A DNA stretch of 57,356 bases, taken from the NCBI GenBank assembly GCA_934122035.1, contig CAKOVP010000002.1:1-57356 (forward strand), read 5' to 3'. The translations under genes and the position numbers were made by a program. Position 1 is the first letter of the stretch, and each line of letters opens with the position of its first letter. The stretch comes from an uncultured Clostridia bacterium. Lineage in GTDB: Bacteria > Bacillota > Clostridia > TANB77 > CAG-508. Shown piece by piece: positions 22,095 to 26,119 of the stretch. A model generated the notes under the pieces. The model saw nothing but the letters and a program-made list of their open reading frames with translations. It searched no databases and was not told the origin of the DNA.

Positions 22095-23319
22095 ATGGAA
22101 GATAACAAAAAATGTTTATATTTATATAATAAAAATATGAACAAAAAACAAGAAAAACGGAATAACCCTAGTTGCTTTGGTCGTAACAATAGTAGTTTTA
22201 TTAATTTTAGCAGGAATAAGCTTAAATTTAGTGCTAGGTGAAAACGGAATTATAACAAAAGCACAGGAGGCAAGAGACAAAACAGAGCAAGCAAGAATAA
22301 ACACTGAAAAGTCAATGAATAGTTTAGAACAAGAATTATCAAATTATGTAAATAAAATAGGCTCTGGAAATGGAGGAAATTCAGGCGGTTCTGAAAGTAA
22401 AGTTGATGGAGTACCAATCCCATCAGGATTTGTGTATGTAGGAGGAACAAAAGCAAGTGGTCTAGTAATTTCAGATGCAGCAGTCGACAAAGAAAAATAT
22501 AAAGGACAAACAACAGTAGGAACAGATTTAGTAGGAAACCAATTTGTATGGATACCAGTAGATAGCATAGCAGATTATAAAAGAACAGCTTATTCAATAA
22601 GTGTTGCAACTGGAACAACAGATACAAAAACAAATTCAGAGCAAATAAAAGCAAGTAGCTCAAGTAGTGATTATTATACAGAAGTATTACCTGCAGATGA
22701 AAAAACAAGCGTAGAAACCAATAAGGGATTCTATATTGGAAGATACGAAGCAGGAGACCAAGAAAGTACAAATTCTACAAAATTAAGAGCAAGCGGAGCA
22801 TCAACAAGTAATACAGTAACAGTAAAAGCAGGACAAGCCCCATATAATTATATAAAATATACAGATGCAAAAAAATTAGCAGAAGGATTTAGTACAAAAC
22901 AAGGATATACAAGTGTAAAATCAAAACTAGTAAGTAGCTATGCATGGGATACAGCAATAGCATTTATACAAAAAACAAATAGCGATTATGGAAATAGCTC
23001 AGAAGAAGGAAATTATAACAATTCTCCAACATTTACTTATACAGGAATAGCAGATACAGAAAAAAATAAACAGACCAAAGCAAATGGAACAGATACATTA
23101 ATTCCAACAGGACAAACAACAGCCGTAAATAACATATACGATATGGGAGGAAATGTAGCGGAGTGGACTACAGAGTCTTATTCTAACACGAACTATCCTT
23201 TCACCCGCAGAGGAGGCAGTTACAGCGACTACTTCGCTGTTTATCCAGCAGGAAGCCGTGGTTGCAATTCGGACCGTGCGATCGATTACATCGGATTCAG
23301 GTGCACTTTATATTTGTAG
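22095..23319 (+). CDS. Paralog 1: pilin-like N-terminal anchor + FGE-sulfatase/C-type-lectin-fold domain with hypervariable C-terminus; needs +1 shift at CGG 22158-22160
   Basis: GAAAGGAAG RBS precedes an ATG leader, MEDNKKCLYLYNKNMNKKQEK. The +1 frame then reads GITLVALVVTIVVLLILAGISLNLVLGENGIITKAQEAR. FGE-type motifs are FVWIPV, FYIGRYEAG, NIYDMGGNVAEWT, RGGSY and GFRC. Confidence 0.7.
23176..23295 (+). other. DGR-type variable region VR1 (candidate)
   Basis: Hypervariable versus paralogs 2 and 3 only at first/second codon positions of NNY codons. Interspersed invariant blocks are GGAGGC, TTCGCT, CCAGCAGG, CGT, TCG and GCG. Confidence 0.6.
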
Positions 23320-23331
23320 ACCTGAGCCCTG

Positions 23332-23360
23332 GTTTCTCTGAACTAAAATTCAGCAGAAAC
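23332..23360 (+). other. Conserved hairpin 13 nt downstream of the paralog 1 stop, preceded by GC-rich CCTGAGCCCTGG (IMH-plus-hairpin-like)
   Basis: GTTTCTCTGAA-ctaaaa-TTCAGCAGAAAC, identical after paralog 2 and absent after paralog 3. Confidence 0.5.
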
Positions 23361-23520
23361 TAAAACCCATAGCAATATGTGGGAAAAAAGAGAAATTCCC
23401 CCAAGAATAGGGGAAAAAATAAAATTATATAGTAGGTAGAAGCCTCTCAGAATATATAGAAAATCGAAAGTTTATAAGGAAAGATATAAGCTAGAAATAT
23501 TAAACGAAAGGAAGAAGAAA

Positions 23521-24739
23521 ATGGAAGATAACAAAGAATGTTTATATAATAGAAATATAAATAAAAAACAAGAAAAACGGAATAACACTAATTGCTTTGG
23601 TCGTAACAATAGTAGTATTGCTAATACTAGCAGGAATAAGTTTAAACTTAGTGTTAGGACAAAATGGAATAATAAGTAGAGCACAAGATGCAAGAAACCA
23701 AACAACAGAGGGACAAGTAAACACCGAAAAAGCTGTAAATGCATTAACAGATGAAATGGAAGATTTAATATCAGAAAACGAAAACTCTGGAAACGGAGGA
23801 AACTCTGGTGGCTCTGGAAGTACAGTAGATGGAGTACCAATCCCATCAGGATTTGTATATGTAGGAGGAACAAAAGCAAGTGGTCTAGTAATTTCAGATA
23901 ATGCAGCAGACAAAGAAAAATATAAAGGACAAACAACAGTAGGAACAGATTTAGTAGGAAATCAATTTGTATGGATACCGGTAGATAGCATAGCAGATTA
24001 TAAAAGAACAGCATATTCAACAAAAGTTGCAACAGGAACAATAGACTCAACAACAAATTCAGAGCAAATAAAATACAGTAACTCAAGTTATTATTTTACA
24101 GAAACATTGCCTGCAGACGAAAAGACAAGTGTAGAAACAAATAAAGGATTCTATATAGGAAGATATGAAGCAGGAGACCAAGAAAGTACAAATTCAAAAA
24201 CATTAAGAGCAAGCGGAGCATCAACAAGTAATACAATAACAGTAAAAGCAGGTCAAGCCCCATATAATTATGTAACAAGAACACAAGCTAAAAGCCTAGC
24301 AGAAGCATTTAGTACAAAACAAGGCTATACAAGTGTAACATCAAAACTAATAAGCAGTTATGCATGGGATACTGCAATTGCATTCATACAAAAAACAAAT
24401 AGCAATTATGGAAATAGCTCAGAAGAAGGAAATTATAGCAATTCTCCAACATTTACTTATACAGGAATAGCAGATACAGAAAAAAATAAACAAACCAAAG
24501 CAAATGGAACAAGTACATTAATTCCAACAGGACAAACCACAGCCGTAAATAACATATACGATATGGGAGGCAATGTAGATGAGTGGACTACAGAGTATTC
24601 TGCTGTATCGGGCAATCATTGCACCCTCAGAGGAGGCTGTTGCGGCAACGACTTCGCTGATAGTCCAGCAGGGGATCGTAATAGCACTTCGGGCAATGCG
24701 AACGCTTCCGTCGGGTTCAGGTGCACTTTATATTTGTAG
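23521..24739 (+). CDS. Paralog 2 of the pilin-like / FGE-sulfatase-fold family; needs +1 shift at CGG 23578-23580
   Basis: The leader MEDNKECLYNRNINKKQEK is followed in the +1 frame by GITLIALVVTIVVLLILAG... The body is ~90% identical to paralog 1 until the C-terminal variable block. Confidence 0.7.
24596..24715 (+). other. DGR-type variable region VR2 (candidate)
   Basis: Same column pattern as VR1. Confidence 0.6.
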
Positions 24740-24751
24740 ACCTGAGCCCTG

Positions 24752-24780
24752 GTTTCTCTGAACTAAAATTCAGCAGAAAC
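24752..24780 (+). other. Conserved post-VR hairpin, copy 2
   Basis: Identical sequence to 23332-23360. Confidence 0.5.
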
Positions 24781-24941
24781 TAAAACCCATAGCAATATGT
24801 GGGAAAAAAGAGAAATTCCCCCAAGAATAGGGGAAGAACATAAAATTGTAGGGTAGGTAGAAGCCTCCCAGAATATATAGAAAATCGAAAGTTTATAAGG
24901 AAAGATATAAGCTAGAAATACAAAACGAAAGGAAGAAGAAA

Positions 24942-26119
24942 ATGGAAGATAACAAAGAATGTTTATATAATAGAGATATAAATAAAAAACAAGAAAAACG
25001 GAATAACTCTAGTTGCTTTGGTCGTAACAATAGTTGTACTTTTAATATTAGCAGGAATAAGTCTTAACTTAGTACTAGGACAAAATGGAATAATAAGTAG
25101 AGCACAAGATGCAAGAAACCAAACAGCAGAAGGACAAGTAAACACCGAAAAAGCAATAAATGCATTAACAGATGAAATGGAAGATTTAATATCAGAAAAC
25201 GAAAATTCTGGAAACGGAGGAAACTCTGGAGGAGGTAGTTCTGGAAGTACAGTAGATGGAGTACCAATCCCAGCAGGATTTGTGTATGTAGGAGGAACAA
25301 AAGCAAGTGGACTTGTAATTTCAGATGCAACAGCAGATAAAGAAAAATATAAAGGACAGGAAACAGTAGGAACAGACTTACAAGGAAACCAATTTGTATG
25401 GATACCAGTAGAAAATATAGCGGATTATAAAAGAACTTGGTATACAGGAATTTACGAACTTAGTGGTTATTCAGAAAACTTACCAGAAGATGAAAAAACA
25501 AGTGTAGAAACAAATAAAGGGTATTATATAGGAAGATATGAAGCAGGAGACCAAGAAAGTACAAACTCTACAACATTAAGAACAAGTAGTTCAAGTACAA
25601 GTAATAAAATAACAGTAAAAGCAGGACAAGCCCCATATAATTATGTAACAAGAACGCAAGCGCAAAGTTTAGCAGAAGGATTTAGTGGAAAGCAAGGCTA
25701 TACAAGTGTAAAATCAAAGTTAGTAAGTAGCTATGCATGGGATACAGCAATAGAATTTATACAAAAAACAAATAGCGATTATGGAAATAGCTCAGAAGAA
25801 GGAAATTATAAAGATTCTCCAACATTTACTTATACAGGAATAGCAGATACAGAAAAAAATAAACAAACCAAAGCAAATGGAACAAGTACATTAATTCCAA
25901 CAGGACAAACCACAGCCGTAAATAATATATACGATATGGGAGGAAATGTATGTGAATGGACTACAGAGTCTTCTTCTAACGCGTTCCCTCCGTACTCGCC
26001 TCGTGGAGGCAATTTCTACAACAACTTCGCTGGTTATCGGTTATCCAGCAGGGAGCCGTACTGGCGGTTCGGGCAGTGCGAGCGATGACATCGGATTCAG
26101 GCTTACTTTATACTTGTAG
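24942..26119 (+). CDS. Paralog 3; needs +1 shift at CGG 24999-25001 and again at CGG 26038-26040 (or is C-terminally frameshifted by a 7-nt tandem duplication)
   Basis: The track ORF ends at 26088 in a non-homologous tail. The +1 frame from 26039 reads GYPAGSRTGGSGSASDDIGFRLTLYL* (stop 26117-26119). GGTTATC is duplicated in tandem at 26032-26045. Confidence 0.6.
25969..26095 (+). other. DGR-type variable region VR3 (candidate)
   Basis: Same column pattern as VR1 and VR2. It lacks the downstream GC-rich box and hairpin. Confidence 0.5.

What the first reader, a model, noticed from the sequence alone, without database searches (positions are those of the whole stretch)
23176..26095. C-terminal ~120 nt of the three paralogs show a DGR-type adenine-mutagenesis signature, but no RT or template repeat is in the window
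The three genes are ~90% identical until the last ~45 codons. From there the aligned codons differ almost only at first and second positions, while the third-position pyrimidine is fixed. Examples (paralogs 1/2/3) are ACG/TCG/GCG, AAC/GGC/TTC, TAT/AAT/CCT, TTC/TGC/TAC, AGT/TGT/AAT, TAC/TGC/TTC, AGC/GGC/TAC, GAC/AAC/AAC, TAC/GAC/AAC, GTT/GAT/GGT, GGT/AAT/ACT, TGC/AGC/GGC, CGT/AAT/AGT, ATC/AAC/AGC and TAC/TCC/GAC. The interspersed blocks GGAGGC, TTCGCT, CCAGCAGG, CGT, TCG, GCG and GG.TTCAGG are invariant. Nearly every variable column contains an A in at least one copy, so all variation is compatible with one template bearing A at those columns (AAY codons). The host domain is an FGE-sulfatase / C-type-lectin fold (FYIGRYEAG, NIYDMGGNV.EWT, RGG, GFRC), the classic DGR variable-protein scaffold with the VR at the extreme C-terminus. 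The inferred template core is ...AGAGGAGGCAATTACAACAACAACTTCGCTGATAATCCAGCAGGA...CGTAATAGCAATTCGGACAATGCGAACGATAACATCGGATTCAGG. I found no second copy of this segment and no reverse-transcriptase-like ORF (no YxDD protein) in the 57 kb. A DGR would therefore have to act in trans, for example from the recombinase-bearing element left of the window. Three tandem targets with pilin-like anchors would be an unusual DGR architecture.
Basis: partly seen in the sequence, partly recalled or inferred. Interest (0 to 1): 0.85.

Follow-up and report, generated by a model that had tools for sequence, protein, structure and literature searches.

The report
Orphan DGR-written variable gene ends
Three tandem surface-protein genes of an uncultured gut Clostridia bacterium end in variable regions that were clearly written by a diversity-generating retroelement, but the retroelement is not nearby, one copy is already broken, and remote targets of this kind are already known.

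Summary
The three paralogs (bodies 22159-23319, 23579-24739, 25000-26119) diverge in a 132-nt C-terminal block, mostly at codon positions 1 and 2. I found genuine template repeats (TRs) in related genomes, beside homologous genes in cassettes ordered target, MutS-like (MSL), bAvd, RT, TR. The columns that vary among the window's three copies coincide with the adenines of those TRs: 36 of 48 A columns against 15 of 87 other columns (Fisher p=4e-11). These are therefore DGR variable regions (VRs). The window holds no RT, Avd, MSL or TR, and neither does a window-identical contig reaching 8 kb further left, so they are non-adjacent "orphan" targets.

A single DGR now servicing all three is not supported. 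VR3 comes from a different TR lineage than VR1 and VR2, carries a frameshifting 7-nt duplication, and has lost the conserved 3' flank. VR2's allele, including its non-adenine changes, recurs in a homolog with a 93% identical body. Strains of this species carry 0, 1 or 3 copies with VR lengths of 129 to 139 nt. Three assemblies are identical to the window. VR1 and VR2 keep intact cis signals, and an orphan locus in a related lineage shows wholesale VR rewriting, so action in trans remains possible. Remote and tandem DGR targets are already described. This is a new member of a known kind.

The parts
22095..23319 (+). Paralog 1. RBS and ATG at 22095 open a leader frame (MEDNK...NKKQEK). An extra C at 22158 puts the body (GITLVALVV..., 22159-23319) in the +1 frame. 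The C-terminal domain is FGE-sulfatase / C-type-lectin-like.
23170..23301 (+). VR1, a 132-nt block. Homology to TRs of relatives runs from about 23174 to 23310. It belongs to TR lineage I and has no non-adenine deviation from the lineage-I consensus.
23317..23420 (+). Conserved 3' flank of the VR. It begins TAGACCTGAGCCCTGG and is followed by three hairpins. It is conserved behind VRs of distant family members and absent from TRs, so it is an inferred target-recognition (IMH/hairpin-type) element.
23521..24739 (+). Paralog 2. ATG at 23521, frameshift C at 23578, body 23579-24739.
24590..24721 (+). VR2, TR lineage I. It has 5 strict non-adenine changes. A related VR2-like allele is carried by P0020 / L036 / L041, whose body is 93% identical.
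24737..24840 (+). Conserved 3' flank element of VR2, 96% identical to that of VR1.
24942..26119 (+). Paralog 3, a pseudogene. ATG at 24942, frameshift C at 24999, body 25000-26119 if the duplication is removed. The called ORF stops at 26088.
25963..26101 (+). VR3, 139 nt, TR lineage II. It contains the 7-nt tandem duplication at 26032-26045. The conserved flank is lost after 26122.

Best explanation
The three genes belong to a very large family of DGR variable proteins of uncultured gut Clostridia. More than 7,800 homologs were found. One cluster member is labelled Christensenellales by NCBI. Each protein has an N-terminal hydrophobic, prepilin-like leader and a C-terminal FGE-sulfatase / C-type-lectin-like domain.

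Their last roughly 130 nt are variable regions written by mutagenic retrohoming. In this process an RT copies a template-repeat RNA, misincorporates opposite template adenines, and the cDNA replaces the VR. The cDNA is guided by the VR 3' end and a conserved downstream element.

The cognate machinery in this family is a cassette ordered target, MSL (MutS-like), bAvd, RT, TR. This is architecture D of Wu et al. 2018. The window has none of it. Its copies are therefore non-adjacent, orphan targets written in trans or before they moved or duplicated to this site, and they derive from at least two TR lineages.

Shown: the DGR origin of the variation, the absence of the cassette within about 65 kb, the decay of copy 3, and copy-number and VR-length polymorphism among strains.

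Inferred: at present the array is mostly a static and partly decaying set of VR alleles. VR1 and VR2 remain formally competent substrates if a lineage-I TR and RT exist elsewhere in the genome.
For: Related genomes carry complete cassettes beside homologous targets.
- L010 and L012-14.
- L015, whose target is 73% identical to paralog 1.
- L016-19.
- bAvd is confirmed by Pfam (E=6.5e-16) and by NCBIfam DivGenRetAVD (E=3.5e-19).
- MSL matches Pfam MutS_I.
- The RT matches RVT_1 and has the motifs LPIGNYTSQ and YMDD.

The TRs behave canonically and predict the window's variation.
- The L015 TR differs from its own VR at 19 adenines and 1 other base.
- Among the window's three VRs, 36 of 48 TR-adenine columns vary against 15 of 87 other columns (odds ratio 14, p=4e-11). 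Pairwise tests give p=2e-9 to 3e-11.
- The 3' flank TAGACCTGAGCCCTGG plus hairpins is conserved behind VRs across the family and absent from TRs.

Action in trans on an orphan locus is seen in a related lineage.
- L020 and L023 are the same uvrB-adjacent locus with no cassette within 10 kb.
- Their protein bodies are more than 99% identical.
- Their VRs differ at 25 of 46 A columns and 5 of 80 other columns.

Evidence that the window's array is static or decaying.
- Three assemblies from at least two samples are 100% identical to the window across VR2 and VR3.
- VR3 has the 7-nt duplication and has lost its flank.
- A VR2-like allele that keeps VR2's distinctive 5' residues (EYSAVSGNHC), which encode its non-adenine changes, sits on a 93%-identical body and is itself frameshifted there.
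- Strains of the same species have 0, 1 or 3 copies with VR lengths of 129, 132, 133, 135 and 139 nt.
- In 5 of 7 protein clusters at 90% identity the VR is invariant while 8-60 other columns vary.
Against: - The rest of the source genome could not be searched. It is not among the GTDB representatives scanned, so a lineage-I TR and RT elsewhere cannot be excluded.
- VR1 shows no non-adenine deviation from the lineage-I consensus. VR1 and VR2 have flanks identical to the L020 locus that is rewritten. This fits continuing competence.
- The region just upstream of the VR is so conserved (0-4% divergence) that non-adenine divergence cannot date the last homing event.
- Even the clearly rewritten pair L020/L023 shows 6% non-adenine differences.
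- Consensus assemblies cannot show within-population heterogeneity.
- Two copies from the array locus in other strains, L009 copy 3 and L040, have bodies 97.7% identical but entirely different VRs. This could reflect rewriting at this locus.
Confidence: 0.72

Rival explanations
1. VR1 and VR2 are being actively diversified in trans. A complete MSL-bAvd-RT-TR cassette with a lineage-I TR lies elsewhere in the same chromosome and currently rewrites them, as it does the uvrB-adjacent orphan locus in L020/L023.
For: - The cis flank is intact and identical to that of the rewritten locus L020.
- VR1 has 0 non-adenine deviations from the lineage-I consensus.
- L020 against L023 shows wholesale rewriting at an orphan locus.
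- L009 copy 3 and L040 have 97.7%-identical bodies but unrelated VRs at the array locus.
- Remote targets more than 100 kb away are documented (PMC5758913).
- RT-bearing relatives (L016-19) come from the same sample series as the window-identical contigs.
Against: - No TR or RT could be linked to this species. The TRs of L015 and L016 have 9-20 non-adenine mismatches to the window VRs.
- VRs are identical across three assemblies.
- VR2's allele is old.
- VR indels persist in several strains.
- Strains with 0 or 1 copy exist.
- All array copies have a frameshifted leader.
- VR3 cannot be served by the same TR.
Confidence: 0.3
2. No retroelement is involved. The pattern arises from ordinary point mutation under diversifying selection on ligand-binding residues, plus gene conversion among paralogs.
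For: - VR dN/dS exceeds 1.
- Some VR alleles are related by descent, with scattered changes. VR1 against allele X is 75% identical with shared derived residues, and VR2 is related to P0020.
- The same VR allele appears on different bodies.
Against: - Variable columns coincide with adenines of independently found TRs (p=4e-11).
- Homologous targets sit next to bAvd, MSL, RT and TR, with adenine-only TR/VR mismatches.
- The NNY codon pattern matches AAY template codons.
Confidence: 0.03
3. The array is a silent-cassette archive. The leader-frameshifted tandem copies are unexpressed stores of DGR-made VR alleles. These are exchanged by homologous recombination with an intact-leader expression locus, the uvrB-adjacent gene. 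This would be analogous to pilS/pilE antigenic variation.
For: - VR allele X is identical over the last 50 residues on five bodies that are 82-93% identical to each other. One of them is P0406, whose body is 99% identical to the intact-leader gene P0003.
- The VR is bracketed by a near-identical stretch of at least 100 nt upstream and by the conserved flank downstream.
- All array copies share the leader frameshift.
- Copy number is polymorphic.
Against: - Several of the contigs involved are short (1.5-3.4 kb), and the shared upstream stretch could produce chimeric short-read assemblies.
- It is not shown that the array and the uvrB-type locus lie in one genome.
- Purifying selection on the array bodies (dN/dS 0.23-0.38) argues that they are or were expressed.
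Confidence: 0.1

Closest known systems
MSL-containing DGRs (architecture D of Wu et al. 2018, NAR 46:11; Msl-encoding Bacteroides DGRs of Macadangdang et al., bioRxiv 2024.11.15.621889)
   Same: Relatives of the window genes sit in cassettes ordered target, MSL, bAvd, RT, TR, with adenine-specific TR/VR mismatches and AAY-rich TRs. The VR lies at the extreme C-terminus of a C-type-lectin / FGE-type domain.
   Different: The window itself has only the targets. The TR lies downstream of the RT. The host is an uncultured spore-forming Clostridia lineage, and the target has a prepilin-like hydrophobic leader rather than a type V pilus or lipoprotein context.
Remote, non-adjacent DGR targets (the seven remote targets of the Treponema DGR; 29 targets more than 100 kb from the RT in Wu et al. 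2018)
   Same: VR-bearing genes with no RT, Avd or TR nearby. They retain target-recognition sequence at the VR 3' end. Several targets can be served by one DGR, and tandem target arrays are known.
   Different: Here the donor TR was not found. The three VRs derive from two TR lineages. One copy is frameshifted and has lost its flank. Copy number varies from 0 to 3 among strains.
TvpA of Treponema denticola and other FGE-type C-type-lectin DGR variable proteins
   Same: The Pfam FGE-sulfatase family matches over the C-terminal 170 residues, and the variable residues lie in the last 45 residues before a GFR(C/L)TL motif.
   Different: Sequence similarity to solved structures is marginal (SUMF2 1y4j, E=0.002 with a profile). 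No confident structural model was obtained.
Neisseria pilE/pilS silent-cassette antigenic variation
   Same: This is a resemblance only. Tandem, apparently unexpressed copies carry alternative variable ends, and identical variable alleles are seen on different gene bodies.
   Different: No recombination mechanism or expression-locus relationship is shown, and the diversity itself is DGR-made.

Membership tests
DGR variable region (target of mutagenic retrohoming) | Variation is confined to positions that are adenines in a cognate TR | tested here: inconclusive
   The cognate TR was not available. With homologous TRs from L015 and L016, variable columns coincide with TR adenines: 36 of 48 against 15 of 87, p=4e-11. 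However, 9-20 non-adenine mismatches per VR show that these are not the donor TRs.
DGR variable region (target of mutagenic retrohoming) | The VR lies at the C-terminus of a C-type-lectin / FGE-sulfatase-type (or Ig-type) domain | tested here: met
   Pfam PF03781 gives E=3.3e-9 and 7.5e-7 for copies 1 and 2, above the cut-off. Copy 3 is below the cut-off. A profile search hits SUMF2 1y4j at E=0.002. The AlphaFold model was unusable (pLDDT 32).
DGR variable region (target of mutagenic retrohoming) | A target-recognition element (IMH and downstream hairpin) at the VR 3' end that is absent from the TR | tested here: met
   The element TAGACCTGAGCCCTGG plus hairpins is present after VR1 and VR2. 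It is conserved in 14 family loci and absent from the TRs of L010, L015 and L016. It is lost after VR3. Its function is inferred, not tested.
DGR variable region (target of mutagenic retrohoming) | Homologous genes are demonstrably diversified by a DGR | tested here: met
   The L015 TR differs from its VR at 19 adenines and 1 other base. The L010 TR and VR are 85% identical, with differences at adenines. L020 against L023 shows VR rewriting on a body more than 99% identical.
Complete DGR locus | A DGR-type reverse transcriptase in the locus | tested here: not met
   No RVT_1 hit in any window ORF of at least 120 aa scanned with Pfam. The two ORFs at 54149-57344 and overlapping minus-strand ORFs were not scanned with Pfam. 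tblastn with three family RTs over the whole window gives E>0.3. None is found in the 8-kb left extension L026 or in any same-species locus L024-L042.
Complete DGR locus | A template repeat near-identical to the VR | tested here: not met
   Repeat search and a pattern search allowing 3 mismatches find only the VRs.
Complete DGR locus | Accessory gene (Avd, MSL or HRDC) | tested here: not met
   tblastn with family Avd and MSL proteins gives E>0.6.
Active DGR target | Within-population or between-strain VR heterogeneity restricted to A columns on an otherwise identical gene | tested here: inconclusive
   Window-identical assemblies show no difference. No strain with a body at least 98% identical and a different VR was found at this locus. 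Read-level data are not available.
Type IV pilin / pseudopilin (class III signal peptide) | N-terminal G|FTLxE cleavage/methylation motif recognised by prepilin models | tested here: not met
   In the window the leader is out of frame with the body. In intact relatives the motif is KG|ITL(I/V)AL, with Ala rather than Glu at position +5. Pfam N_methyl scores 18.8 bits, below its 21.2 cut-off. The TIGR02532-type NCBIfam model gives no hit.

The most novel reading that the evidence does not exclude
The tandem array may be a polymorphic archive of DGR-made VR alleles that are normally unexpressed. Two mechanisms could use it. One is a conserved +1 frameshift site (AAA-CGG-A, where CGG is the rarest Arg codon) that gates translation. 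The other is recombination that moves VR cassettes into an intact-leader expression locus. Either would couple retroelement hypermutation to cassette-type antigenic or phase variation.
Probability: 0.1. Interest if true: 0.8.

Novelty: new member of a known kind. Interest (0 to 1): 0.4.

Why it matters
The finding identifies a very abundant, unannotated family of DGR-diversified surface proteins in uncultured human-gut Clostridia. NCBI labels one member as a SUMF1/EgtB/PvdO family enzyme. It also shows that many family members are orphan targets, some still rewritten in trans and others decaying. This affects how DGR activity is counted in metagenomes, because surveys that start from the RT miss such loci. 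It also gives a natural series for studying how DGR targets are gained, duplicated, silenced and lost. In itself it does not reveal a new mechanism.

Tried and rejected
- The invariant-column pattern ACTTCGCTGNTNNTCCAGCAGGNNNNCGT was scanned over genome, metagenome and viral collections. It found only VRs (L001-L006). It found no TR and not the source genome, so the rest of the genome could not be searched.
- Viral-contig searches with the target and with Avd found nothing. There is no sign of a phage origin.
- I tried to link RT, Avd and target hits by shared contig length. No RT shares a contig length with the closest 120 targets.
- The TRs of L015 and L016 were rejected as donors because they have 9-20 non-adenine mismatches to each window VR.
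- I tried to use non-adenine divergence among the VRs to date the last homing event. I rejected this because the local background just upstream is only 0-4% and the clearly rewritten pair L020/L023 itself shows 6%.
- Structure prediction from a 32-sequence alignment failed (pLDDT 32), so no fold search was run.
- The exact-protein look-up of the left-edge recombinase found nothing. The neighbouring gene gave the left extension instead.
- The L003 RT next to a target is a group II intron RT (RVT_1 plus GIIM), not a DGR RT.
- Rfam finds nothing in or near the array.
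Full report
**What is in the window.** The window is a chromosomal stretch of a low-GC (about 28%) spore-forming Clostridia bacterium. It encodes CotJA/B/C, SpoIIAB and sigma-F, SpoIID, Spo0A, ScpA and YtfJ. Between a split alpha-amylase gene and two Rpn/PDDEXK transposase-like genes lie three tandem paralogs. Their called ORFs are 22177-23319, 23597-24739 and 25018-26088. Copies 1 and 2 match Pfam FGE-sulfatase above its curated cut-off. Copy 3 scores below the cut-off.

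**Checking the observation.**
- In the 132-nt C-terminal block, 48 columns vary. By codon position they split 19, 21 and 8, and 41 of them contain an A in at least one copy.
- dN/dS is 1.3-3.4 in this block and 0.23-0.38 in the bodies, which have diverged to dS of about 0.3.
It shifts the frame. With it removed the gene would end at 26119 in ...GFRLTLYL.
- There is no further copy of the segment in the window.
- There is no RT, Avd or MSL in the window.

**Finding real templates.** A scan with the invariant columns found homologous VRs in other Clostridia MAGs and metagenomes (L001-L006).
- In L001 and L006 the homologous gene is followed by a 154-aa MutS_I-domain protein and a 125-aa bAvd protein, and then directly by ftsK.
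- Following the Avd family led to complete cassettes ordered target, MSL, bAvd, RT (336-339 aa; RVT_1; motifs LPIGNYTSQ and YMDD), TR. These are in L010 and L012-14, in L015 and in L016-19.
- The L010 VR (7168-7319) and TR (9366-9517) are 85% identical, with differences at TR adenines.
- The L015 TR differs from its own VR at 19 adenines and only 1 other base.
- This is architecture D (MSL-containing) of Wu et al. 2018 (PMC5758913). Msl is also reported in Bacteroides DGRs (bioRxiv 2024.11.15.621889).

**Testing the window against those templates.** The window VRs align without gaps to the L015 and L016 TRs, once the duplication in VR3 is removed.
- Of 48 columns that are A in both TRs, 36 vary among the window's three VRs. 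Of 87 other columns, 15 vary. The odds ratio is 14 and Fisher's p is 4e-11. Pairwise tests give p=2e-9 to 3e-11.
- The DGR origin of the variation is therefore established as well as it can be without the cognate TR.
- The L015 and L016 TRs are not the donors. Each window VR has 9-20 non-adenine mismatches to them.

**Cis element.** Directly after the stop codon, VR1 and VR2 are followed by TAGACCTGAGCCCTGG and three hairpins. Folded as DNA the stretch has a z-score of -3.1.
- The element is conserved behind the VRs of 14 loci, including the distant L010 type. TRs diverge exactly there.
- I read it as the target-recognition signal (IMH plus hairpin type). That is an inference.
- It is missing after VR3. 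Its sequence changes after GTAGACC.

**Is the machinery nearby?** It is not.
- L026 is 100% identical to window 1-12842 and extends 8 kb further left. It shows that the left-edge serine recombinase belongs to an island inserted in an M14 peptidase gene. The island carries an HpaII-type restriction-modification system and a YobI-like ATPase. It has no RT, Avd or MSL.
- None of the same-species loci L024-L042 contains these genes.

**Is the array being diversified now?** The evidence is mixed but leans towards no.
1. L007, L008 and L032 come from at least two samples. They are identical to the window across the VRs they cover.
2. VR3 is of a different TR lineage (TCGTGGAGGC...AGGCTTACT, shared with L001, L005 and the L015/L016 TRs) than VR1 and VR2 (CAGAGGAGGC...AGGTGCACT, shared with L020-23). 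One TR therefore cannot serve all three.
3. VR2 carries five strict non-adenine changes. A related allele that keeps VR2's distinctive 5' residues (EYSAVSGNHC), and so its non-adenine changes, occurs in P0020, L036 and L041 on a 93%-identical body, where a 1-nt insertion frameshifts it.
4. Strains with about 99% identical flanks have 0 copies (L034), 1 copy (L033, L035-L038) or 3 copies (window, L009). Their VR lengths are 129, 132, 133, 135 and 139 nt. Re-homing from a TR would erase such indels.
5. In five of seven protein clusters at 90% identity the VR is invariant while 8-60 other columns vary. The other two clusters contain a few discrete alleles that recur across clusters.

**Evidence on the other side.**
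- VR1 has no non-adenine deviation from the lineage-I consensus.
- The flanks of VR1 and VR2 are identical to that of L020.
- L020 against L023 is a clear case of wholesale rewriting at an orphan locus. Both are the same uvrB-adjacent locus, their protein bodies differ at 3 of about 350 residues, and their VRs differ at 25 of 46 A columns.
- The L020 gene is 90% identical at the nucleotide level to paralog 1. I could not determine whether that locus lies in the same genome or species as the window.
- Dating by non-adenine divergence is not possible. The 100 nt upstream of the VR differ by only 0-4% among paralogs, and the rewritten pair itself shows 6%.

**Leader frameshift.** Intact family members read ...AAA CAA GAA AAA | GGA AT. 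AC. (KQEK|GITL).
- All three window copies and at least two of the three L009 copies have an extra C before GGA. The ATG preceded by an RBS therefore opens a frame that stops after 41-52 codons, and the body lies in the +1 frame.
- The codon created, CGG, occurs once in 9,685 codons of the window's genes.
- Of the 120 closest family representatives, 21-24 are called from an internal TTG or later, which suggests the same defect; the extra C itself was confirmed only in the window and L009 DNA.
- Despite this the bodies show purifying selection.
- Three readings remain open: a programmed +1 frameshift at a hungry codon, an internal start, or silent copies. I did not resolve this.

**Shared VR alleles.** One VR allele (YEWTTESYSDTNYPYTYRGGSYYRSFAVYPAGNRNYVSDVAGDSLGFRCTLYL) is identical on five bodies that are 82-93% identical to one another. 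One of these is an intact-leader gene of the uvrB type. This could mean recombinational exchange of VR cassettes. It could equally be short-read assembly chimerism across the near-identical stretch upstream of the VR.

**Comparison with what is known.** Non-adjacent targets are described in Wu et al. 2018: 73 targets in 45 of 372 DGRs, 29 of them more than 100 kb from the RT, and up to eight tandem targets. FGE-type C-type-lectin variable proteins are the classic scaffold. The prepilin-like leader is only a motif resemblance, and no model reaches its threshold. I found no paper linking DGRs with prepilin leaders, but that full-text search is narrow.

**Verdict.** The genes are orphan, non-adjacent targets of an MSL-bAvd-RT type DGR family, written from two TR lineages. 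Copy 3 is dead. Copies 1 and 2 are competent in cis, but current activity is unproven. This is a new member of a known kind and of moderate interest.

Noticed in passing
window 22095-22180, 23521-23600, 24942-25020 (extra C at 22158, 23578, 24999): All three paralogs, and at least two of the three copies in strain L009, have a 1-nt insertion (C) between the leader (...CAA GAA AAA) and the GGA of G|ITL. It creates the rarest Arg codon, CGG (1 in 9,685 codons), and puts the body in the +1 frame. Bodies still show dN/dS of 0.23-0.38. Possible readings are a programmed +1 frameshift, an internal TTG start, or silent copies.
   Followed up: partly
window 26032-26045 and 26120-26145: Copy 3 carries a 7-nt tandem duplication (GGTTATC twice) inside its VR and has lost the conserved 3' flank element. 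Both features are also present in the independent assembly L008.
   Followed up: yes
window 1-1812; L026 1-9822: The left end of the window is the C-terminal 418 aa of a 542-aa large serine recombinase. Its island is inserted in an M14 carboxypeptidase gene, leaving a 165-aa fragment where other strains have 305 aa. The island cargo seen in L026 is a DNA methylase, an HpaII-type endonuclease and a 1,240-aa YobI-like ATPase.
   Followed up: partly
window 3489-4601: A fourth gene has the same prepilin-like leader (MKKREIIKENKGITIVALVITIIVLLVLAG) in frame, but an unrelated C-terminal part with no Pfam hit. It is present in only some strains (L026, L028) and absent in L024, L025 and L027.
   Followed up: no
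window 19981-21445 (- strand): The alpha-amylase gene is split into two ORFs (320 aa and 158 aa). The same split, called as 286 or 320 aa plus 155 aa, is seen in every strain of the species examined (L007, L009, L033-L037). It is therefore not an assembly error.
   Followed up: no
L001 1630-4024; L006 8767-11125: Widespread cassettes lack the RT. The order is target, MSL, bAvd, then directly ftsK, with no RT or TR in the locus. Avd is 98-99% conserved on dozens of contigs, and the target VR is invariant in its cluster. Either the RT/TR was recently deleted or the accessory genes work with an RT elsewhere.
   Followed up: partly
L016 4803-4995 vs 7120-7300: A complete cassette (the identical RT is on 28 contigs) has an adjacent VR with a 6-nt deletion and about 12 non-adenine mismatches relative to its own TR. 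An intact DGR can therefore sit beside a VR that is not freshly homed.
   Followed up: no
L009 11159-13391: In a strain whose flanks are 99% identical to the window, an IS256-family (Transposase_mut) element is inserted immediately after the third paralog and splits the conserved VR flank element.
   Followed up: no
proteins P0406, P0004, P0009, P0012, P0405: An identical VR allele (last 50 aa) sits on five gene bodies that are only 82-93% identical to each other, including an intact-leader gene. This is either VR cassette exchange by recombination or short-read assembly chimeras.
   Followed up: partly
window 26322-26421 and 27969-28068: An 82%-identical repeat of about 100 nt precedes each of the two Rpn/PDDEXK transposase-like genes (26586-27731 and 28285-29301) that border the array. 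Strains with fewer array copies have only one such gene.
   Followed up: no
window 30056-30209 and 35606-35758: A conserved upstream element of about 150 nt (74-86% identity) lies in front of the MscS-family channel gene and the methionine gamma-lyase gene. Rfam has no match at its gathering thresholds.
   Followed up: no
window 10055-10353 (- strand): Rfam finds a DUF3800-I sRNA (67 bits) directly after the DUF3800 gene, and a tRNA next to it.
   Followed up: no
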